From NCBI GenBank assembly GCA_937934295.1, contig CALHAI010000005.1:119272-183271 (forward strand): DNA of 64,000 bases, written 5' to 3'. This stretch comes from an uncultured Blastocatellia bacterium. Lineage in GTDB: Bacteria > Acidobacteriota > Blastocatellia > HR10. How positions within the stretch are numbered: position 1 is the stretch's first letter; each line of letters opens with the position of its first letter. Of this stretch, positions 1,018 to 64,000 are shown piece by piece. The notes beneath the pieces were generated by a model that was not told where the DNA came from, searched no databases, and saw only the letters and a program-made list of their open reading frames with translations. Position numbers and translations under genes: made by a program.

Positions 1018-1134
1018 ACCCGGTTCGGTTATACTTGTCTCGGTCAACCCGATCATTCTGCGAGTGATAGTCATGTTCGAGCGCGATGCTTGAGGACGGC
1101 ACGCGGCTTGCATATGCAATGCGAGTTGATTTCG

Positions 1135-49267: not shown

Positions 49268-50734
49268 ATGCCGCCGGTGAAGATCACACAGGGACTGACG
49301 CAGCGCCTGGCGCTGACGCCGCAGCTCAAGCAACGCATTGATCTGCTGGCCATGACGAAACTGGAGCTGCTCACCGTCATCCGGCAGGAGCTGCGGGAGA
49401 ACCCGGTGCTGGAGGAAGTGATCGAGCCCGTCCCCTCGGCCGAGATGGTGCTCCGCAATACGGAGCGCGAATCCCACGCCGTGGCGTCGGAATCGGCGCA
49501 CGTCGAACCGAAGCCGAAAGATCCCTTCGAGGAGGTGGATTTCGAGGATTTCTTTCAGAACTATCTCGATCCAACCCCACAGACGATGTGGGCGGAACCT
49601 CCGCCGGAAGATGAGGCCTCGTTGTTGGAGAAGCTGACGCCGAGTCGCCCCTCTCTCTACGAGGCCTTGCTGGAGCAACTCCGTTTGATCGCCCCCAAGG
49701 AAGAGGATGTGCGACAGGCCGCGGAAGCGATCATCGGATGCCTCAATAGCGATGGCTATCTGGAGGCGACGCTCGAGGAGATCAAGGCCCTGGGGGGATG
49801 GTCCGATGAGGTCGTCGAGCGCGCGCTCGCCCTCGTGCACAGTCTCGATCCTCCGGGCATCGGCGCGCGCGATCTGCAAGAATGCTTGCTGCTGCAGCTG
49901 CGCGCGCGGGGGTGGGAGGATCGCCTGGCGGCCCGCCTGATCCGGGAGCATCTGTGGGAGTTACAGCCGCATCGGTTGCCGGAGTTAGCCCAGCGACTCA
50001 ACCTCCCTCTGGAGATGCTGCGCGAGGAGCTGAAGGTGATTCGACAGTTGGACCCGCGTCCGGGGCGAAACCTGGGGACGGCGCCTCCGACCTACATCGT
50101 GCCCGAGGCGAGCATCGTGAAAGTGGACGATCGGTACGTCATCCTCTTCAATGAGGAAGGCTTGCCACAGCTTCGGATCAGCGCCTCTTATCGGCGGCTG
50201 CTCAAAAACGAACACCTGCCCAAGGAGACGCGAGATTTCGTGCGCGAGCGTTTCCGCTCGGCGGTCGAACTCTTGAAGAACATCGAGCATCGTCGGCGCG
50301 CGATCTATCGCGTCTGCGAAGCGATCGTCCGGCGGCAGCGCGACTTCCTCGACTATGGCCCGGAGCATTTGAAGCCGATGCTGCTGAAAGATATCGCCGC
50401 CGAATTGGGTCTCTCGCTGTCGACCGTCAGTCGCATCGTGAGCAACAAGTACATTGACACCCCACAGGGCCTCATCGAGTTGCGCCGCTTCTTCACCGAA
50501 GGCGTGAGGAAGGAGAACGGCGAGCAGATTTCGACGCGTGTCCTCAAGCTGCGCCTTCAAAAGCTCATCGAGCAGGAGGATCCGCGAGCGCCGCTGACCG
50601 ATGAGGATCTCGTGCACTTGCTGGAGCGGGAGGGGATCCGGCTCTCTCGCCGCACGGTGACGAAGTATCGGAAGCAGTTGGGCATTCCCAGCTCGCGGGA
50701 TCGCTTGCTGCTCGCCGCAGGGAGGGAGAGATGA
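49268..50734 (+). CDS. rpoN: RNA polymerase sigma-54 factor
   Basis: N-terminal activator-interacting region (LTPQLKQRIDLL), C-terminal RpoN box ARRTVTKYR. Confidence 0.9.
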   Translation: MPPVKITQGLTQRLALTPQLKQRIDLLAMTKLELLTVIRQELRENPVLEEVIEPVPSAEMVLRNTERESHAVASESAHVEPKPKDPFEEVDFEDFFQNYLDPTPQTMWAEPPPEDEASLLEKLTPSRPSLYEALLEQLRLIAPKEEDVRQAAEAIIGCLNSDGYLEATLEEIKALGGWSDEVVERALALVHSLDPPGIGARDLQECLLLQLRARGWEDRLAARLIREHLWELQPHRLPELAQRLNLPLEMLREELKVIRQLDPRPGRNLGTAPPTYIVPEASIVKVDDRYVILFNEEGLPQLRISASYRRLLKNEHLPKETRDFVRERFRSAVELLKNIEHRRRAIYRVCEAIVRRQRDFLDYGPEHLKPMLLKDIAAELGLSLSTVSRIVSNKYIDTPQGLIELRRFFTEGVRKENGEQISTRVLKLRLQKLIEQEDPRAPLTDEDLVHLLEREGIRLSRRTVTKYRKQLGIPSSRDRLLLAAGRER

Positions 50735-57127: not shown

Positions 57128-57973
57128 AGACTGGCCCTCGCATGAAGGACGACACCTTCCCCGAAGGAAATCTGTACTCGACAGAGAAGTGCTTTGTCGA
57201 GCGATCTCCAAGACTTGCCGCCTTTCTGGAAACAGCAGTATCTTCAGCTGTCAAGCCTTAACCGGCTCTGCCTCCCAAGCCGCGACCCCCACAGACAGCA
57301 GCACGCCAAGCCCCTCTCATCCCAACCCTCACGCATCTCTATCCCCCTCACCATCCTCTCCAACCTCCTGGCCTTCACCTCTTCGCCAAAAAGTTGCTTG
57401 AAGGCAGAAAAGAAACTCCTCCTCTCCACCCCCCCATAGCCAAGCCTCTCCTTCCACCCCAAGGGATCTTTTCCATATGCCCTGACCACTTCCTCCCTTT
57501 CCCCTCCACATCTTCCCCTCACCTTGGATCCCCACCTCTATCCCATTCCTCCCTCTCCCTAAGCCTGGAGCCCAGATCGGGGTCAGGCTGACTCGGGTAT
57601 CTTCAGGGAGAGGATGCTGTGGGGCAAAGAGGGAGATAAGCTGGCTCAAACCCCTTGCTAACCCCTCATGCTGCCGATACGGCCCCCCCTCCGGATCCCC
57701 CAAAATCACATCAGGCCGTGAGGATAGCGAAAGAGACGCCCATTCTTTTTCTCCCCTTGCCGGTCTGAGAGGCGTCCAACGGCTAAGAGGATTTCCCCCG
57801 TCGGACATGATGCTCGCTGTACTCGTTCCAGTTCCTTTCAGGCTTTCTCCCCTTTATTGTATCCCCTCGTCTTCATCCTGACCAAGACCAGGCCGCCGCA
57901 AGCCCCTGGCTTGAGCCACGGGGATAAGGCGGCCGGTTTTCAATAGGTGGCCGCGGGATGGTATACTTGGCTT

Positions 57974-58069
57974 ATGCCGCAGTACACAGCGGAATGCAAG
58001 TTGAACAACGTCTCAAAGAAGCCTCTTTCCCAGCGCATCCACGCCTGTGAGTGTGGCGTGGAGATGTAA
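57974..58069 (+). pseudogene. decayed C-terminal remnant of an IS200/IS605-family TnpB (zinc-finger region), flanked by in-frame stops
   Basis: MPQYTAECKLNNVSKKPLSQRIHACECGVEM* resembles the TnpB hallmark K.LS.R...C..CG preceding DRD.NAA.NI (here CxC with one residue lost; the downstream frame reads RNLYLAFLA). An in-frame stop lies 30 nt upstream and the remainder of TnpB is absent. Confidence 0.35.
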
Positions 58070-58440
58070 CGCAATCTCTACTTGGCGTTTCTGGCGTGGT
58101 GCGTGAAGGAGAATGGTTTGCTCCACGCAGATCTGGCGCGCGAGCGTTGGTCGGGTGCGGCAGCGGCTCCTGCGGGCGGCGTGGAGCCGTGCCACCCAAC
58201 CTGCGAGTGCGAGGGCGTTTCGCCCTTCCTCCTTCGGGGTGTATCCCCGGAGTCGGAGCGGGTCGCCCGCGCAAGAGGGGATAGCCAAAACCGAGGTCCG
58301 GGATGGTGTAGCGGAGGTGCCGACCTCTGGCGAGAGCCCGGAAGAGGTTGCGGTGGTTCCCCTCAGAACCCCCCGGCTCGAGCCGTGGGGAGGTTCAGAC
58401 CCCAGCTGCAGGTTATGCAATACAGCACAGAGGAGCACAT

Positions 58441-58468
58441 CCCCCGCGCGAGGTGAATCGCGCGGGGG
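58441..58468. terminator. very stable GC hairpin CCCCCGCGCGA-GGTGAA-TCGCGCGGGGG 12 nt beyond the stop of the minus-strand gene at 58480 (terminator and/or IS-end hairpin)
   Basis: 11-bp perfect stem, 6-nt loop. No clear U-tract on either strand. Confidence 0.4.
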
Positions 58469-58479
58469 ACGAGTGGGCC

Positions 58480-59301
58480 TCACGGATGCGGCGTGTGGCA
58501 TTGCACGCAGTTCATCTTGGCCTTCACATTGTCCATGCCCTTATCGCCGTGACACGTGAGACAGGTGGCGAGGGATTCCGGCGGAACATAAATGCCCCGG
58601 AACTGTCCATCGGCCCATTGATTCAGAAGCTCGACGGCGCGAGCTGCGACATCCCCCGTGAGCCGGCCGCATCGCTCCTTTCGCTCAAGCGATGAGGCGC
58701 GGAATCCCGAATGTTCGCACCACTTGGTCACTGAGATGTGGCATAAGGGAGACCCCGAAGCGTTCTGCGGCAGTGGCTGCGTATACTTCTGGACGAAGAA
58801 CTGTCCGGTTTGGGCGTACTGATTGCTGATGTCCGAGGGCAGGAGCGCTTGCGTGTACCACCCCTGCAATTCGTGGATGAGCTGATCGGCCGTCTGCTTA
58901 TCGCACACGAGATTGATGGCTGCACAGGCGCCTAGGAGTGCCCCGCACGACCCACCCCATCCGACGACGCCACCATGTCCCCAGATCATCATCTCGGGCG
59001 GGATGAGCGTGTACGGGTATCCAACGGCCTCGCGCAGCGCGACGACGATCGCGCGAAACGCGCCATAGGCGCACCCGTAGCCCTTCTCCCAATACCCTTG
59101 GTGACCGAGCTTGCGCACGTACTCGGGATCGAGCTTCTTATAGGGCCATGGCCAGGGGGGAAGCTCCACCTGGGCTTTCCCCTCGCGGCCGATGAGGCTC
59201 ATTCCGACTACACCCGCCGCAGCACAGGCGGCACATTGGGTCGTCAGCGTCAGAAATTCCTTCCGCGTAAGTTTCCGCTTCATAGCGCTTCCCTCCATCA
59301 T
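58480..59301 (-). CDS. C_GCAxxG_C_C family redox protein with C-terminal dihaem c-type cytochrome extension (two CxxCH), exported
   Basis: Signal with Tat-like RKEFL motif followed by AACAAAGVVG. The region ...GYGCAYGAF...SCGALLGACAAINLVCDKQ... matches the C-x-GCAxxG-x-C-x-C family pattern. C-terminal CLTCH and CVQCH. Confidence 0.7.
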   Translation of the reverse strand: MMEGSAMKRKLTRKEFLTLTTQCAACAAAGVVGMSLIGREGKAQVELPPWPWPYKKLDPEYVRKLGHQGYWEKGYGCAYGAFRAIVVALREAVGYPYTLIPPEMMIWGHGGVVGWGGSCGALLGACAAINLVCDKQTADQLIHELQGWYTQALLPSDISNQYAQTGQFFVQKYTQPLPQNASGSPLCHISVTKWCEHSGFRASSLERKERCGRLTGDVAARAVELLNQWADGQFRGIYVPPESLATCLTCHGDKGMDNVKAKMNCVQCHTPHP

Positions 59302-59411
59302 GGCTTTCGCCTTACTTTATTAGCAAGTGGCGTGCCAAGACAAGCATTCTTGATTCTCCCAGAGTTAGCGCGCCGATGGCGCGGCCACCTGCTGAAAAAC
59401 GCAACAGGTCC

Positions 59412-59493
59412 GTTGAATTCCTCAACATGGCTAAGCGCGCCAAGCGCCACAACTTCCCACATTCACCGCCCACCTCGTGTTGAGGAATTCAAC
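59412..59493. promoter_or_regulatory. two copies of 15-bp palindrome GTTGA-attcc-TCAAC (second inverted: GTTGAggaatTCAAC), centres 67 bp apart, in divergent promoter region
   Basis: 59412-59426 and 59479-59493. The extended 16-nt match is TGTTGAGGAATTCAAC. Confidence 0.5.
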
Positions 59494-59631
59494 AGTTCGT
59501 GCCGAAGGACACTCCCATCGGCCAGGTGCGGGTGCACATCCCCCTGATGATCAACGACTTCCCGAGCATTGGGAGAAGAATGCGGTACGGCACTCCGATT
59601 GCATATATCTTCGGCTGAGGGAGGACATCCG

Positions 59632-60651
59632 ATGAAGATGAAGAGCGCCGACAAGTGGCTGAGAGAGCGACCCACAGAAGCGATGGCCTCTTCCCCCCTC
59701 TCGGTCGTCTCCGAAGGCGAACGCGCTTCTTCTCCGCTCAAATGCGTGTGGATGCTCGCTGGAGTCGTGGATTACAAGCTCTGTGATAGGGATTATGAAT
59801 GTGAGCAGTGCCCATTCGACCGCGCCCTTCGGGAATGGGCGGCGATTGGTGAACGAGAAGCTCGACGACCCCTTGCCGAACAAGCGAAGGAAGACCGCAC
59901 CAAGGATCATGGGCTCGTCGGATGCCCGCTCTGCAGAGAGCTTGAAGGCTGCTCTCAGGAGCCCATCTCGGCACGCGAGCGTGTCCGCGTCAAAAGGGGA
60001 TTCCGCATAGCGGAGGCGCTCTTCTACCATCCGGCGCATCTCTGGGTGCGTGTCGAGTGGCGAGGGCAGGTGCGCATCGGATTGGACGATTTCGGGCAGT
60101 GGCTTCTCGGGCGCATCTATCACGTGAGATTCCCCGATGTCGGCGCGCGGGTGATCGCTGGACATCCGTGCGGCGAGCTGGCATATCACGCGGGAGAGAT
60201 CGCCCTGCCCGCGCCGGTGACGGGGATGATCCACCAACTCAACGAGAAGCTCATGCGGTACCCCTCTCTTGTCAACCACGATCCCTATGGCGAAGGATGG
60301 ATGATGATCTTTCAACCGGAGCACCTGCATGAGGATTTGCAGCAGCTGCTGTACGGGGAGCAAGCGCTGGCATGGTATGCACGAGAGATCGCGAGGTTGC
60401 ATCAGGAGATCCACATCGCTTTGTGCGCCATGGGAACGTCCCCGGAAGCCCTCGCCGGCCGCACGCTCCAAGACGGGGGCGTTCCCGTTTCTCCCTCTTC
60501 TGAGTGCGAGCTCATGGCGTCCACCACGAGGAAGTCGCTCACCGAGCGGCTCAACCCCACGTGGTGGGCAGAGGTGATCGCGCAGTTTTTGCAACCGCAA
60601 GCCGGGCGCTCCAGAAGTGCGCCCGAGAGGGAAACTCGGCACAGGAGGTGA
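59632..60651 (+). CDS. GcvH-fold (glycine-cleavage H / lipoyl-like hybrid barrel) protein with N-terminal Cys-rich region; lipoyl-lysine absent
   Basis: RBS GAGGGAGG before the ATG at 59632. N-terminal CVWMLAGVVDYKLCDRDYECEQC and GCPLCRELEGC. The core HLWVRVEW...IGLDDFGQ...VRFPDVGARV...PVTGMIHQLNEKL...NHDPYGEGWMMIF matches the GcvH pattern, but the lysine position is H/A. The track start at 59569 is probably too early. Confidence 0.65.
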   Translation: MKMKSADKWLRERPTEAMASSPLSVVSEGERASSPLKCVWMLAGVVDYKLCDRDYECEQCPFDRALREWAAIGEREARRPLAEQAKEDRTKDHGLVGCPLCRELEGCSQEPISARERVRVKRGFRIAEALFYHPAHLWVRVEWRGQVRIGLDDFGQWLLGRIYHVRFPDVGARVIAGHPCGELAYHAGEIALPAPVTGMIHQLNEKLMRYPSLVNHDPYGEGWMMIFQPEHLHEDLQQLLYGEQALAWYAREIARLHQEIHIALCAMGTSPEALAGRTLQDGGVPVSPSSECELMASTTRKSLTERLNPTWWAEVIAQFLQPQAGRSRSAPERETRHRR

Positions 60652-60654
60652 GCT

Positions 60655-61359
60655 ATGGTCGCCTTCTTCGTCATTCTCACGATCATCGGGTTCATCCTCG
60701 TGGACTCCTTCGTCCAATGGGTCGAAGCCCGACAGGGGCTGACCTTGAGGCGAACGGCGCCGCGTCCCGAGCTTGTCCCGGCACTCGCGTTGGAAACCAT
60801 CTCCGTTCCCGCCGGCCTCTTCCTGGACGAGGGCCACACGTGGGTCCGCCTGGAGCCGAGCGGACGGACGCTGATCGGCATGGATGAGTTCGTGCGTCGA
60901 GCGATCGGTCGCGTGGACGCCGTGGAGTTGCCGAACGTCGGCTCCGTCGTTCGACGCGGCGATCCGCTGTTCACCGTCACACAAAATGGCCGACGGGCCG
61001 TTTTCCGCGCACCGCTCACTGGCGTCGTGAGCGCCGTCAACGAGAACCTCGCGCGCCTTCCTGAAACGGGACGGATGGACCCATATGAAGAAGGATGGGT
61101 GTGCGCACTGAAGCCGAAAGACCTGGCGGTGCATCTGCGTCATCTTTTCATCGCCGAGGAAGCACGGGCATGGCTTCGGTGGGAGACCGAACGCTTCAAG
61201 GAGTTCTTGACTCGGTGTCCGATGCCGCAGTCGGCTCTCGGACAGGTCTTGCAAGACGGCGGGCAGTGGGCCGAAGGCATTTTGGAGATGCTCGATGAAG
61301 CCGGCTGGGAGGAATTCGCGCGAACGTTCCTGCAAAGCCCGCGTTCTTCGGCAGAATAA
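60655..61359 (+). CDS. membrane-anchored GcvH-fold protein (second paralogue), lipoyl-lysine absent
   Basis: Starts 3 nt after the upstream stop. N-terminal TM helix MVAFFVILTIIGFILV. Core HTWVRLEP...IGMDEFV...VELPNVGSVV...PLTGVVSAVNENL...RMDPYEEGWVCAL. Confidence 0.65.
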   Translation: MVAFFVILTIIGFILVDSFVQWVEARQGLTLRRTAPRPELVPALALETISVPAGLFLDEGHTWVRLEPSGRTLIGMDEFVRRAIGRVDAVELPNVGSVVRRGDPLFTVTQNGRRAVFRAPLTGVVSAVNENLARLPETGRMDPYEEGWVCALKPKDLAVHLRHLFIAEEARAWLRWETERFKEFLTRCPMPQSALGQVLQDGGQWAEGILEMLDEAGWEEFARTFLQSPRSSAE

Positions 61360-61640
61360 GGAGGGCGGTCAAAGGCGCGGCTTCTGGCATTGGCGGCGGA
61401 GCGCGCGCCGACCGCTCCCTTTGTGTCCGAAATCAGTCACTGGCGGGCTCTGGTCCGTTGCACCTAGGAAGCGGCTCTCGATGGGGGATTTGCCCCACCT
61501 CAGCTTCTCGACAGCAGGAGCGATGCCATCGTGGTGCTGTAAGTGCTTGAAGTTAAGCCTTTCGGAAGCGGGCCTGCGAAAGGCACGAGGAGCTGGCCTG
61601 TGGCATGGAAATTGCATCCCTACGAAAAGGGGGGGCGCGT

Positions 61641-62447
61641 ATGGGCGACAAAAGGGGCCTTCTCTTCGACGCGACCTTGTGCATCGGATGCGGGGCGTGC
61701 TACGAGGCGTGCAAAGAGCGAAACCAGCTCCCACGGACGGCGGCACACTTTCTGGATGATCGGCTTTCGGATCAAACCTACACGGTTGTGAAGAGACGTG
61801 GAGGGCGATTCGTCCGCCAGCTCTGTATGCATTGCGAGGTTCCGACGTGTGTTTCCGTGTGTCCGGTCGGCGCGCTGGAGAAGACGGCCACAGGTCCGGT
61901 CATCTATCACGAGGCGCGCTGCATCGGATGCCGGTATTGCATGCTCGCGTGTCCCTTCGGCATCCCGAAGTACGAGTGGAGGAAGATCTTGCCTCGCGTC
62001 CGAAAGTGCGATCTCTGTGCGGATCGCCTCGCGGCCGGGCGCCCTCCGGCGTGCGCTGAGGTCTGCCCGACGGGAGCGACACGATTTGGCGATCGCCAGG
62101 CGCTGATCGAAGAAGCGCGCGCGCGAATCCGCACCCATCCTCAAAAGTATGTGCCGAGGATTTACGGCCTGGAGGAAGTCGGCGGTACATCGGTGCTGCT
62201 CCTCTCGGACATCCCCTTCGAGCGCCTCGGCTATCGGACCGATCTGCTGTCGGAGCCCTTGCCACTGTTGACGTGGCAGGTCTTGCAGAAGATCCCCAAT
62301 TTCGTCGCTGTCGGCAGCGTGTTGTTGGGAGGCATTTGGTGGATCACGAATCGGCGTCGAGAGGTCCAACTCCGAGAGCGCCAGCAGCGGGAGGTTCGCG
62401 AGCCCTCGGCGCCTGAATCCGCCGATCCATCGCATGAAGAGCCATGA
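61641..62447 (+). CDS. 4x[4Fe-4S] ferredoxin-type iron-sulfur subunit with C-terminal TM anchor (FdnH/HybA/PsrB-like), no N-terminal signal peptide
   Basis: AAGGGGGGG before the ATG at 61641. Four Cys clusters (CIGCGACYEAC, CMHCEVPTCVSVCP, CIGCRYCMLACP, CDLCADRL...CAEVCP). C-terminal hydrophobic helix FVAVGSVLLGGIWWI. Confidence 0.85.
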   Translation: MGDKRGLLFDATLCIGCGACYEACKERNQLPRTAAHFLDDRLSDQTYTVVKRRGGRFVRQLCMHCEVPTCVSVCPVGALEKTATGPVIYHEARCIGCRYCMLACPFGIPKYEWRKILPRVRKCDLCADRLAAGRPPACAEVCPTGATRFGDRQALIEEARARIRTHPQKYVPRIYGLEEVGGTSVLLLSDIPFERLGYRTDLLSEPLPLLTWQVLQKIPNFVAVGSVLLGGIWWITNRRREVQLRERQQREVREPSAPESADPSHEEP

Positions 62448-62487
62448 TCCCCCGCGCGTCGGGCGCGCGGGAGAGGTGGGGACGAAT

Positions 62488-64000
62488 ATGATGCGCTGGA
62501 GCTTTCGCCGACCGGGTTTTTGGCAACTCGTATTTGCGCTCATCCTGGGCGTTGGCCTCTATAGCACGGTCGTCCGGTTCACCGGCGGCCTGGGAGCGAG
62601 CACGGCCTTGAGCGATGCCTTCCCCTGGGGATTGTGGATCGGCTTCGATGTGCTCTGCGGAGTAGCCCTGGCAGCCGGGGGATTCACCCTCAGCGCCGTC
62701 GTCTACATCTTCAATGTCGAGCGGTTTCGACCGATCATTCGTCCGACGATCCTCACGGCGTTCCTCGGCTACGCGCTCGTCATCGTGGCCTTGCTCTTCG
62801 ACCTGGGACGCCCCTATCGCATCTGGCACCCATTGGTGATGTGGAACCCGCACTCGGTGATGTTCGAAGTGGCGTGGTGTGTCATGCTCTACACGACGGT
62901 GCTCGCGCTGGAATTCAGCCCGATGGTATTCGAACGCTTGAGGCTCGAGCGGCCGCTGCGAATCCTTCACGCGCTGACGGTGCCGCTGGTCATCCTCGGC
63001 GTCATCCTCTCGACGCTTCATCAGTCCTCGCTCGGATCGCTCTACTTGATTGTCCCGGAGAAACTGCATCCGCTCTGGTATTCGCCGCTTTTGCCCATCT
63101 TCTTCTTCATCTCGGCGATCGCGCTCGGTTGCGCGATGCCCATCTTCGAGTCATTTCTGAGCTATCGGGCATTCCGAAAACGGCTGGAGATTGAGCTGCT
63201 CGCCGATTTGGGGAAGGTGATCGTCGTCACATTGGCCGTATATCTGGTCCTGAAAATCCAGGACTTGGCCGGACGGGGCGTGCTCTCCCGCATTGTCGAA
63301 CCAACATACGAGGGGCGAATGTTCCTGGCCGAGATGCTGCTCGGCGTGATCGGTCCGATCCTGTTGCTCAGCCTCCGTCGCATTCGGACGGATCACTTCG
63401 GCCTCTTCGTCTCCGCCGTTCTGGTCGTTCTCGGTTTCATTATGAATCGGCTCAATGTGAGCATCACGGGGATGGAAGCGTCTTCCGGCGTGTCCTACTT
63501 CCCGAGCTGGACGGAGCTTTCGGTGACGCTGATGATCGTCGCCCTGGGGTTCGCGCTCTTTGGCGCGGCAGCGAAATATCTCCCCGTCTTCCCGGAGAAG
63601 GAGCGTCTTCCGGCACCCACCTTGGTGGAGCCTCCAGCGGTGGCTGTCCTGCGGCGACCGTGGATTGGCACGACGCCCCTGGTGTTGATCCTCGGCGGGC
63701 TCTTCTTCATCGGCGCCATGGGATCGGCCTATAGCGGCCTTCAGCATCGCGAACGAGCACTCGCCACCGCTCCGGCCAGCGAGGAGAGCGAACCCGAGAT
63801 CGCCGACGGCTTAGAGCGCTTTGAAGTCCCTCCGGACGTCACATTCCCTCAGGGAGAGGCCAGTCCCGGACCGGTTACATTCCGACACGCCTCGCACCTC
63901 AATTGGGAGAGGCCCAATTGCACGATCTGTCATCACGAGCCGTTCCGCATGTTGAAGGCATTCGGGAGCGTGACCGCATCGCCCGCCCGCGATTTGCATG
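62488..64000 (+). CDS. NrfD/PsrC/HybB-family polysulfide-reductase-type membrane subunit with extra C-terminal TM helices and a fused cytochrome c7/c3-like haem domain (partial; continues beyond window)
   Basis: Not in the ORF track because there is no stop in the window. Read in frame from ATG 62488: MMRWSFRRPGFWQLVFALILGVGLYSTVVRFTGGLGAS...NRLNVSITGMEAS... (8+ TM helices), then ...FEVPPDVTFPQGEASPGPVTFRHASHLNWERPNCTICHHEPF.... The last stretch matches the c7 pattern V.F.H..H......C..CH. Confidence 0.8.
   Translation, partial: MMRWSFRRPGFWQLVFALILGVGLYSTVVRFTGGLGASTALSDAFPWGLWIGFDVLCGVALAAGGFTLSAVVYIFNVERFRPIIRPTILTAFLGYALVIVALLFDLGRPYRIWHPLVMWNPHSVMFEVAWCVMLYTTVLALEFSPMVFERLRLERPLRILHALTVPLVILGVILSTLHQSSLGSLYLIVPEKLHPLWYSPLLPIFFFISAIALGCAMPIFESFLSYRAFRKRLEIELLADLGKVIVVTLAVYLVLKIQDLAGRGVLSRIVEPTYEGRMFLAEMLLGVIGPILLLSLRRIRTDHFGLFVSAVLVVLGFIMNRLNVSITGMEASSGVSYFPSWTELSVTLMIVALGFALFGAAAKYLPVFPEKERLPAPTLVEPPAVAVLRRPWIGTTPLVLILGGLFFIGAMGSAYSGLQHRERALATAPASEESEPEIADGLERFEVPPDVTFPQGEASPGPVTFRHASHLNWERPNCTICHHEPFRMLKAFGSVTASPARDLH

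What the first reader, a model, noticed from the sequence alone, without database searches (positions are those of the whole stretch)
59412..59493. Duplicated 15-bp palindromic operator GTTGA-N5-TCAAC in the divergent promoter of the redox module
GTTGAattccTCAAC (59412-59426) and GTTGAggaatTCAAC (59479-59493) are the same palindrome in both orientations. Their centres are 67 bp apart, roughly six helical turns. They lie between the minus-strand C_GCAxxG gene start (59301) and the plus-strand GcvH-like operon start (59632). Two identical dyad sites on the same face of the helix are the classic arrangement for a dimeric repressor or activator that controls both divergent promoters. The half-site TTGA/TCAA is reminiscent of FNR-like sites but with N5 rather than N6 spacing.
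Basis: seen in the sequence. Interest (0 to 1): 0.5.

Follow-up and report, generated by a model that had tools for sequence, protein, structure and literature searches.

The report
Enhancer sites for a sigma-54 activator
The two palindromes are real and, together with a third weaker copy, most likely form the docking platform of an NtrC-type activator that switches on two back-to-back sigma-54 promoters of an uncharacterised redox gene cluster. This is an ordinary kind of switch, but the motif is new and is conserved across many bacterial phyla.

Summary
GTTGAATTCCTCAAC (59412-59426) and its reverse complement (59479-59493) are the only exact GTTGA-N5-TCAAC sites in the 64 kb window, where 0.025 are expected. 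A third, degenerate site lies at 59391-59405.

The sites are flanked by two divergent -24/-12 (sigma-54) promoters: TGGCAC-N5-TTGCT on the minus strand (59322-59337) and cGGCAC-N5-TTGCA on the plus strand (59588-59603). No sigma-70-like promoter was found.

About 100 nt beyond the window end, the same operon encodes a sensor kinase. It is followed by a response regulator of the NtrC family (receiver, AAA+ domain with GAFTGA, Fis-type HTH). rpoN lies in the window.

In 52 orthologous loci from several phyla there are 45 exact sites where 0.49 are expected. All lie upstream of cluster genes. The fixed layout is A-B at 22 bp, B-C at about 67 or 78 bp, then the promoter about 90-130 bp further on.

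The regulator's recognition helix is invariant wherever the motif occurs. The one locus with a divergent helix lacks the motif.

Verdict: upstream activating sequences of a two-component sigma-54 activator, not an FNR-like or repressor operator and not an RNA hairpin. It is a new member of a known kind. Binding has not been tested.

The parts
59391..59405 (.). Site A: degenerate enhancer dyad GCTGAAAAACGCAAC (2 mismatches to GTTGA-N5-TCAAC), 21 bp before site B.
   Evidence: It is the third-best weight-matrix hit in the window. The equivalent position holds a better or perfect site in orthologous loci, with an A-B spacing of 21-23 bp in 24 of 24 loci.
59411..59427 (.). Site B: cGTTGAATTCCTCAACa (core 59412-59426).
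   Evidence: The site is conserved in orthologous loci.
59478..59494 (.). Site C: tGTTGAGGAATTCAACa (core 59479-59493), the exact reverse complement of site B.
   Evidence: It is the best-conserved site of the array.
59588..59603 (+). Sigma-54 (-24/-12) promoter cGGCAC-N5-TTGCA of the GcvH-like operon. The inferred transcription start is about 59614, followed by GGGAGG at 59619-59624 and the ATG at 59632.
   Evidence: GGCAC and TTGC are invariant in the alignment of six relatives. An equivalent element lies 90-133 bp after site C in other loci.
59322..59337 (-). Sigma-54 promoter TGGCAC-N5-TTGCT (exact consensus) of the divergent split-Soret-cytochrome-like gene. The inferred transcription start is about 59311.
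   Evidence: It is conserved in all relatives that carry the divergent gene: L005-L008 and L144, L147 and L167.
61601..61616 (+). Third sigma-54-like promoter, TGGCAT-N5-TTGCA, in the 281-nt gap before the HybA/HmcB-like gene. The true start of that gene is the ATG at 61641, preceded by AGGAGG.
   Evidence: It is conserved in L005, L006, L007, L009, L013 and L014. No enhancer-like site lies next to it.
58480..59283 (-). Gene for a C_GCAxxG_C_C protein with C-terminal CxxCH motifs (split-Soret cytochrome c-like), transcribed divergently.
   Evidence: Pfam. NCBIfam split-Soret cytochrome c, E 6e-59, below the equivalog cut-off.
59632..60651 (+). GcvH-like protein 1. It has an N-terminal four-cysteine motif and no lipoyl-lysine.
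60655..61359 (+). GcvH-like protein 2. It has an N-terminal hydrophobic segment and no lipoyl-lysine.
61641..62447 (+). 4Fe-4S protein, HybA/HmcB-like.
62434..64000 (+). NrfD/HmcC-like membrane subunit fused to a cytochrome c7 domain. It runs off the window and ends at window-equivalent 64083. The sensor kinase follows at window-equivalent 64100-65800 and the sigma-54 activator at 65797-67158 (L002 14469-16169 and 16166-17527).
   Evidence: The window is identical to L002 over the shared 14.4 kb.
49268..50734 (+). rpoN (sigma-54) gene of the same genome.
   Evidence: ORF. Pfam domains Sigma54_AID, Sigma54_CBD and Sigma54_DBD on the product.

Best explanation
The palindromes are upstream activating sequences (enhancer sites) for the NtrC-family response regulator encoded at the end of the same gene cluster.

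Proposed chain of events. Every step is inferred except the sequence features themselves.
1. A membrane sensor kinase detects a redox or ligand signal. Its periplasmic domain carries invariant CxxCH and Cx4CH motifs, so it probably binds c-type haem.
2. The kinase phosphorylates the receiver domain of the regulator.
3. Regulator dimers occupy the three 17-bp dyads tGTTGA-N5-TCAACa: site A at 59391, site B at 59412 and site C at 59479.
4. Three dimers supply the six protomers of the active AAA+ ring.
5. The ring reaches, by DNA looping, the sigma-54 holoenzyme held in closed complex at two promoters. At the plus-strand promoter (59588-59603) the site centres lie at about -128, -195 and -216. 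At the minus-strand promoter (59322-59337) they lie at about -87, -108 and -175.
6. ATP hydrolysis, through the GAFTGA loop, opens the promoters.

The result is signal-dependent co-induction of two units. One is the split-Soret-cytochrome-like gene. The other is the operon of two GcvH-like genes, HmcB-like and HmcC-like genes, the kinase, the regulator and an archaemetzincin gene. Because the operon includes the regulator's own genes, positive autoregulation follows.
For: Promoters and regulator:
- Both flanking promoters match the -24/-12 consensus, and no sigma-70-like promoter or terminator is present.
- The kinase and a regulator with receiver, Sigma54_activat and HTH_8 domains lie directly downstream of the operon, and rpoN is in the window.
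- The regulator sequence has GAFTGA and a Walker A motif. Its best matches are AtoC, ZraR and NtrC and NtrC-family structures.

Conservation of the cluster and motif:
- The whole cluster is conserved in loci labelled Acidobacteriota, Bacteroidota, Kryptoniota, Ignavibacteria, Gemmatimonadota, Planctomycetota, Poribacteria and others. In most loci the regulator is its most conserved protein, at 53-96% identity.
- In 747 kb from 52 loci there are 45 exact GTTGA-N5-TCAAC sites against 0.49 expected. None lies inside a cluster coding region and all lie upstream of cluster genes.
- The layout is fixed: A-B at 21-23 bp; B-C at 66-68 or 77-79 bp, two classes one helical turn apart; site C to the -24 element at 106-117 bp in most loci.
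- Loci from other phyla carry TGGAAC-N5-TTGA-type elements at the equivalent place.
- In the window, the three sites are the top three weight-matrix hits.

Link between regulator and motif:
- The recognition helix IDRVTLY(N/S)KI is invariant in all loci that have the motif.
- The single locus with a divergent helix, L031 (INRVTLHKMI), has no site scoring above 3.3 bits.

Other support:
- In an unbiased metagenome scan for site pairs, 10 of 26 stretches next to cluster genes had a correctly placed sigma-54 promoter. Only 1 of 77 other stretches did.
- Published surveys place most enhancer sites within about 100 nt of sigma-54 promoters (PMC4641369).
Against: - No binding or expression data exist; the whole link is comparative.
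- The B-C gap of 52 nt, and a total array span of 103 bp, is wider than in textbook enhancers. The three NorR sites, for comparison, fit in 66 bp (PMC2831303).
- Site A is degenerate in this genome.
- The plus-strand promoter has C instead of T at its first position.
- The correlation with a divergent recognition helix rests on one locus.
- A few orthologous loci (L030, L041, L054) showed no convincing array. Their promoter region may lie outside the stretch examined.
- The third promoter at 61601 has no nearby site.
Confidence: 0.85

Rival explanations
1. The sites are operators for a conventional dimeric regulator (FNR/CRP-like, LysR-type or another repressor or activator) acting on sigma-70 promoters.
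For: Each site is a dyad. TTGA/TCAA half-sites recall FNR boxes. TTGA-N5-TCAA trivially fits the LysR T-N11-A pattern.
Against: - The spacing is N5, not the N6 of FNR boxes.
- No sigma-70-like promoter is present in 59200-59700.
- Two conserved -24/-12 promoters flank the sites.
- No CRP/FNR, LysR or other DNA-binding gene is conserved in the cluster apart from the enhancer-binding regulator.
- The sites sit 87-216 bp upstream of the inferred starts, which is not operator or class I/II activator geometry.
Confidence: 0.06
2. The 16-nt perfect inverted repeat forms a long hairpin, either an RNA element in a leader or a DNA cruciform. On this view the palindromy of each arm is incidental.
For: The region folds at -38.1 kcal/mol with a z-score of -4.9 against shuffles. 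That result follows automatically from a perfect inverted repeat.
Against: - The repeats lie upstream of both inferred transcription starts, so neither mRNA would contain them (inference).
- There is no Rfam match and no terminator.
- Outside the closest clade, the centres of sites B and C are no more complementary within a locus than between loci (2.37 against 2.06 of 5 positions; 10% of shuffles do as well).
- A third copy of the motif stands in tandem, and the B-C spacer varies in sequence and length.
- Each arm being a dyad is unexplained by a hairpin.
Confidence: 0.03
3. The repeats are the terminal inverted repeats of a small mobile element (MITE-like) that landed in the intergenic region.
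For: Perfect 16-nt inverted repeats 50 nt apart. A TnpB-like remnant lies 1.4 kb away, at about 57940-58070.
Against: - There is no other copy in the window.
- The same motif sits at the same place relative to the same genes in many phyla, while the inner sequence is not conserved.
- No target-site duplication is evident.
Confidence: 0.01

Closest known systems
NtrC enhancer at glnAp2 of enteric bacteria
   Same: A two-component NtrC-family activator binds multiple 17-bp dyads of 6-N5-6 geometry with an A/T-rich centre. The NtrC consensus TGCACC-N5-GGTGCA is quoted from my own knowledge. The sites lie more than 100 bp upstream of a -24/-12 promoter and nucleate an AAA+ oligomer.
   Different: The half-site sequence differs (TGTTGA). 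There are three sites with a wide, quantised B-C gap of 67 or 78 bp, instead of two strong sites 32 bp apart. The enhancer is shared by two divergent promoters. The regulator falls below the NtrC equivalog cut-off (453 against 559 bits).
ZraSR / zraP of E. coli and Salmonella
   Same: ZraR controls divergent sigma-54 promoters for zraP and for its own zraSR operon (PMC4987338). That is the same logic: a shared intergenic enhancer, a periplasmic-signal kinase and autoregulation. ZraR and AtoC are the best-scoring named families for this regulator.
   Different: The scores are far below the equivalog cut-offs (476 against 760 bits for ZraR; 500 against 714 for AtoC), so it is not an orthologue. 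The target genes are unrelated (a redox module rather than a zinc chaperone). The kinase sensor domain carries haem-c motifs.
NorR three-site enhancer at norVW
   Same: Three dyad sites are associated with one sigma-54 promoter. For NorR, all three are needed to assemble the active oligomer (PMC2831303). Three dimers making one hexamer is the natural reading here too.
   Different: The NorR sites fit within 66 bp, whereas this array spans 103 bp. NorR is a one-component GAF-domain sensor, not a response regulator. The motif is different.
HupR/HoxA sites (TTG-N5-CAA) upstream of hydrogenase operons (from my own knowledge, not checked here)
   Same: An NtrC-family response regulator of a redox or energy-metabolism operon recognises a TTG...CAA dyad.
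   Different: The spacing differs: TTGA-N5-TCAA equals TTG-N7-CAA. No hydrogenase structural genes are present in the cluster. Orthology was not tested.

Membership tests
Enhancer (UAS) of an NtrC-family sigma-54 activator | Multiple dyad-symmetric binding sites | tested here: met
   There are three sites. The consensus from 72 sites is the 17-bp dyad tGTTGA-RWWWY-TCAACa.
Enhancer (UAS) of an NtrC-family sigma-54 activator | A -24/-12 (GG-N10-GC) promoter roughly 70-200 bp from the sites, directed away from them | tested here: met
   Promoters at 59588-59603 (+) and 59322-59337 (-). They are conserved in relatives.
Enhancer (UAS) of an NtrC-family sigma-54 activator | A cognate activator with an AAA+ domain bearing GAFTGA plus a C-terminal HTH, and sigma-54 encoded in the genome | tested here: met
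   The regulator at L002 16166-17527 has Response_reg, Sigma54_activat and HTH_8 domains, and GAFTGA is present. rpoN is at window 49268-50734.
Enhancer (UAS) of an NtrC-family sigma-54 activator | The motif co-occurs and co-varies with the regulator across genomes | tested here: met
   45 exact sites against 0.49 expected, all upstream of cluster genes. The recognition helix is invariant where the motif is present. The motif is absent in L031, whose helix differs. That exception is a single locus.
Enhancer (UAS) of an NtrC-family sigma-54 activator | Physical binding by the activator, and activator- and sigma-54-dependent transcription | not testable with these tools
   This needs EMSA or footprinting, in vitro transcription or genetics.
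FNR/CRP-type site | TTGAT-N4-ATCAA geometry (TTGA-N6-TCAA) | tested here: not met
   The spacing is TTGA-N5-TCAA in all 72 aligned sites.
FNR/CRP-type site | Centred near -41.5 or -61.5 of a sigma-70 promoter, with a CRP/FNR-family regulator available | tested here: not met
   No sigma-70-like promoter was found. No such regulator is conserved in the cluster. The rest of the genome was not examined.
ZraR or AtoC orthologue (identity of the regulator) | Score above the NCBIfam equivalog cut-off | tested here: not met
   AtoC scores 500 bits against a cut-off of 714. ZraR scores 476 against 760. NtrC scores 453 against 559.
Structured RNA or hairpin element | Compensatory changes that keep the arms paired; a match to a known RNA family | tested here: not met
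   Within-locus complementarity of the centres is not above between-locus shuffles outside the close clade. There are no Rfam hits.
LysR-type T-N11-A site | A divergently encoded or adjacent LysR-family regulator | tested here: not met
   T-N11-A is trivially contained in TTGA-N5-TCAA. No LysR gene is in the locus or conserved in orthologous loci.

The most novel reading that the evidence does not exclude
The array may be the signature of an undescribed regulon that has stayed fixed across many phyla. In this reading, a probable haem-c sensor kinase and a dedicated sigma-54 activator control a membrane redox module. The module is built from HmcB/HmcC-like subunits, two GcvH-like proteins that cannot be lipoylated and, in one clade, a split-Soret-type cytochrome.

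The enhancer itself has an unusually rigid geometry:
- an A-B tandem at 22 bp;
- a distant site C at 67 or 78 bp, the two classes differing by one helical turn;
- opposite polarity of the A/T-rich centres of sites B and C.

This geometry would imply that the DNA between B and C is bent or wrapped when the hexamer assembles. That architecture is not described for model enhancers.
Probability: 0.3. Interest if true: 0.55.

Novelty: new member of a known kind. Interest (0 to 1): 0.4.

Why it matters
It assigns a specific DNA motif, two or possibly three sigma-54 promoters and a cognate two-component system to a gene cluster with no published description that I could find. The cluster is widespread in uncultured Acidobacteriota, Bacteroidota, Kryptoniota, Ignavibacteria and other phyla.

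That gives an experimental handle on what induces this redox module, through reporter fusions, DAP-seq and kinase ligand screens. It also gives a simple sequence signature, tGTTGA-N5-TCAACa in a 22 + 67/78 bp layout, for finding further regulon members in metagenomes.

Mechanistically it is a standard sigma-54 enhancer. The general interest is therefore moderate.

Tried and rejected
- **Rfam scan of the whole window:** no family at gathering score.
- **Sigma-70 promoter and intrinsic terminator scan of 59200-59700:** nothing found.
- **Hairpin reading:** the fold is strong, but trivially so. There is no covariation and the region lies upstream of both inferred starts. Rejected.
- **FNR-like and LysR-like readings:** rejected on spacing, promoter type and absence of such regulators in the cluster.
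- **MITE reading:** rejected because there are no further copies and the context is conserved.
- **IHF site between site C and the plus-strand promoter:** ATCAAcgacTT at 59549-59561 matches the core of WATCAANNNNTTR only partly. It is not conserved beyond close relatives. Left open.
- **Literature searches:** nothing relevant for the motif string, for sigma-54, enhancer-binding protein, glycine cleavage and NrfD together, or for the NrfD plus GcvH cluster. The Desulfovibrio sigma-54 regulome paper mentions no GcvH-like or split-Soret target.
- **Regulon extension:** the weight matrix found no further strong site in the 64 kb window or the 10 kb beyond it. The metagenome pair scan gave mostly tandem-repeat or chance matches outside the cluster. 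One possible extra target turned up, L138.
- **Not achievable:** the rest of the 590 kb source contig could not be scanned.

Full report
**1. The observation**

GTTGAATTCCTCAAC lies at 59412-59426 and GTTGAGGAATTCAAC at 59479-59493. The two are exact reverse complements. The perfect inverted repeat is 16 nt long, with 50 nt between the arms.

They are the only exact GTTGA-N5-TCAAC matches in the window. From base composition, 0.025 are expected in 64 kb. The chance of a second site within 100 bp of a first is about 8e-5.

**2. Surroundings**

Gene content around the sites:
- Minus strand: a C_GCAxxG_C_C protein with C-terminal CxxCH motifs, resembling split-Soret cytochrome c.
- Plus strand: two GcvH-like proteins, a HybA/HmcB-like 4Fe-4S protein, and an NrfD/HmcC-like membrane protein fused to a cytochrome c7 domain that runs off the window.

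An exact-sequence look-up of the first GcvH-like protein returned the source contig. L002, a 590 kb ENA metagenome contig, is identical to the window over the shared 14.4 kb. About 100 nt beyond the window end the operon continues with three genes:
- a HAMP-HisKA-HATPase sensor kinase;
- a response regulator with Response_reg, Sigma54_activat and HTH_8 domains;
- an archaemetzincin-family gene.

The regulator carries GAFTGA and a Walker A motif (sequence). Its best family matches are AtoC, ZraR and NtrC, all below their equivalog cut-offs. Its best solved relatives are NtrC-family activators. rpoN lies in the window at 49268-50734.

**3. Promoters**

A consensus scan for TGGCAC-N5-TTGCW allowing at most one mismatch gave four hits in 64 kb. 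Three of them are in this cluster:
- an exact match on the minus strand at 59322-59337;
- cGGCAC-N5-TTGCA on the plus strand at 59588-59603, 29 nt before the ATG at 59632;
- TGGCAT-N5-TTGCA at 61601-61616, before the HybA-like gene. That gene's real start is the ATG at 61641, behind AGGAGG.

No sigma-70-like promoter or terminator was found between the divergent genes.

With GG placed at -25/-24 and GC at -13/-12, which is an inference, transcription would start near 59614 (+) and 59311 (-). The palindromes then lie upstream of both starts:
- For the plus promoter, the site centres are at about -128 (C), -195 (B) and -216 (A).
- For the minus promoter, they are at about -87 (A), -108 (B) and -175 (C).

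By established knowledge, sigma-54 promoters are silent without an AAA+ activator bound to upstream sites. This is the positional range where such sites are found. A survey of Desulfovibrio found most of them within about 100 nt of the promoter (PMC4641369).

**4. Comparative evidence**

An alignment of GcvH-like homologues was used to fetch 51 loci from one genome per species.

*Conservation of the cluster.* The cluster comprises the two GcvH-like genes, the HybA-like and NrfD-like genes, the kinase, the regulator and the archaemetzincin gene. It recurs in loci labelled Acidobacteriota (including Blastocatellia and Pyrinomonadaceae), Bacteroidota, Kryptoniota, Ignavibacteria, Gemmatimonadota, Planctomycetota, Poribacteria and others. 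In most loci the regulator is the most conserved protein, at 53-96% identity.

*Enrichment of the motif.* In 747 kb there are 45 exact GTTGA-N5-TCAAC sites against 0.49 expected. None lies inside a cluster coding region and all lie upstream of cluster genes.

*A fixed three-site layout*:
- Sites A and B are 21-23 bp apart in 24 of 24 loci.
- Sites B and C are either 66-68 or 77-79 bp apart. The two classes differ by one helical turn.
- A -24/-12 element begins 106-117 bp after site C in most loci, and at 90, 124 or 133 bp in a few.
- In the Bacteroidota and Kryptoniota loci the promoter is of the form TGGAAC-N5-TTGA, at 124-127 bp.

*The third site in this window.* The window has the same layout. 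A 17-bp weight matrix built from the 72 sites ranks sites C, B and A as the three best hits of the whole window, at 23.5, 22.3 and 15.9 bits. The next hit scores 11.6.

*The consensus.* It is tGTTGA-R-W-W-W-Y-TCAACa. This also explains why the inverted repeat in the window extends to 16 nt.

*Close relatives.* An alignment of six of them shows conservation concentrated in the three sites and the two promoters. In distant relatives nothing else in the spacers is conserved.

*The divergent promoter.* The minus-strand promoter is present exactly in those loci that carry the divergent cytochrome-like gene.

**5. Link to the regulator**

The second helix of the HTH, IDRVTLY(N/S)KI, is invariant in every locus that has the motif. 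The one locus with a different helix is L031, labelled Desulfobacterales (INRVTLHKMI). It has no site above 3.3 bits. No other DNA-binding protein is conserved in the cluster.

Many were tandem-repeat or chance matches. A correctly placed sigma-54 promoter accompanied 10 of 26 stretches next to cluster genes, but only 1 of 77 others.

**6. Mechanism**

Only the sequence features, their conservation and the co-occurrence with the regulator are shown. Everything else is inferred from what is established for NtrC-family activators:
1. The kinase phosphorylates the receiver domain.
2. Regulator dimers bind the three dyads.
3. Three dimers supply the six subunits of the AAA+ ring.
4. DNA looping brings the ring to the closed sigma-54 complexes on either side.
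5. ATP hydrolysis opens the promoters.

Because the kinase and regulator genes follow the NrfD-like gene with gaps of 16 nt and an overlap, activation should feed back positively on the system. In some other phyla an extra site sits directly before the kinase gene (L046, L047, L050).

The kinase's periplasmic domain contains CxxCH and Cx4CH motifs that are invariant across all phyla. It has a weak, sub-threshold match to the haem-containing Mcp40H-20 sensor. A haem-based redox or small-ligand signal is therefore a reasonable guess.

**7. Rivals**

- **FNR-like or LysR-like operator on sigma-70 promoters.** This fails on spacing, on promoter type and on the absence of such regulators in the cluster.
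- **RNA or DNA hairpin.** The predicted fold is strong, but that follows from the perfect repeat. The region is upstream of both inferred starts and Rfam finds nothing. Outside the closest clade, the centres of B and C are no more complementary within a locus than between loci.
- **Mobile-element ends.** This is excluded by the conserved context.

**8. What remains odd**

- The wide, quantised B-C gap.
- The centre of site B is T-rich while that of site C is A-rich in 14 of 24 loci, with the opposite pattern in 2. This may reflect directed bending of the DNA between B and C. I could not test that.
- The third promoter at 61601 is conserved in the close clade but has no adjacent site. It may use the enhancer 2.1 kb upstream, or it may not be functional.

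**9. Comparison with known systems and novelty**

- **NtrC sites.** The geometry (17-bp 6-N5-6 dyads with an A/T-rich centre) matches NtrC sites. That comparison is from my own knowledge.
- **ZraR.** The divergent, autoregulated layout matches ZraR at zraP/zraSR (PMC4987338).
- **NorR.** The three-site requirement recalls NorR (PMC2831303).

The regulator is not an orthologue of any named family. I found no paper describing the motif or the cluster. This is a new member of a well-known kind of element. It is useful as a handle on an uncharacterised, widely distributed redox module, but it is not mechanistically surprising.

Noticed in passing
window 57128-58479: A 1.35 kb gene-poor gap. It contains a C/T-rich tract at 57280-57560 (GC skew down to -0.6). 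At about 57940-58070 there is a short ORF ending ...KKPLSQRIHACECGVEM*, which looks like the C-terminal zinc-finger remnant of a TnpB/IS605-family protein.
   Followed up: no
window 59632-60651 and 60655-61359: Both GcvH-like proteins lack the lipoyl-lysine. H and N occupy the column of E. coli K65, and Q does so in two relatives. The first protein has an invariant N-terminal C-x12-C-x5-C-x2-C motif. They are unlikely to act as lipoyl carriers.
   Followed up: partly
L002 14469-16169 (window-equivalent 64100-65800, beyond the window): The sensor kinase has a periplasmic domain with CxxCH and Cx4CH motifs that are invariant in about 40 orthologues from all phyla. It has a weak Pfam match to the Mcp40H-20 sensor. 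It is probably a c-type haem sensor.
   Followed up: partly
window 59430-59458 and 59555-59561: Extra blocks are conserved only among close relatives. One is GCTAAGCGCGCCAAGCGC...AACTTCC in the B-C spacer, which contains an AGCGC-N5-GCGCY dyad. The other is GACTTCC between site C and the plus-strand promoter. These could be sites for a second factor or a bending protein.
   Followed up: no
window 61601-61616: A third sigma-54-type promoter lies inside the operon, before the HybA/HmcB-like gene. It is conserved in the close clade but has no enhancer-like site next to it.
   Followed up: partly
L138 4170-4420: A low-GC metagenome contig carries the same array: TGTTGAATTTTTCAACA twice, plus weaker copies at 22 bp. 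A TGGCAT-N5-TTGCT promoter follows. The downstream gene encodes a secreted protein with no Pfam match and is not a GcvH-like gene. It is a possible additional regulon member in another lineage.
   Followed up: partly
L059, L061, L084, L089, L117, L137, L161, L162 (metagenome contigs): Tandem arrays of 18-, 21- or 42-bp units each contain GTTGA-N5-TCAAC, in unrelated contexts without cluster genes. Their nature is unknown.
   Followed up: no
window 1097-1112: Another sigma-54-like match, CGGCAC-N5-TTGCA, at the start of a 721-aa ORF.
   Followed up: no
L001 compared with the window/L002, e.g. window 61617-61640: Two assemblies of the same population differ. Ungapped comparison of L001 with the window over 14.4 kb gives 1815 mismatched positions, which likely reflects indels that shift the register. 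Just upstream of the HybA-like start they differ by small substitutions or homopolymer-length changes. This changes the called gene start, giving 282 aa in one assembly and 268 aa in the other.
   Followed up: no
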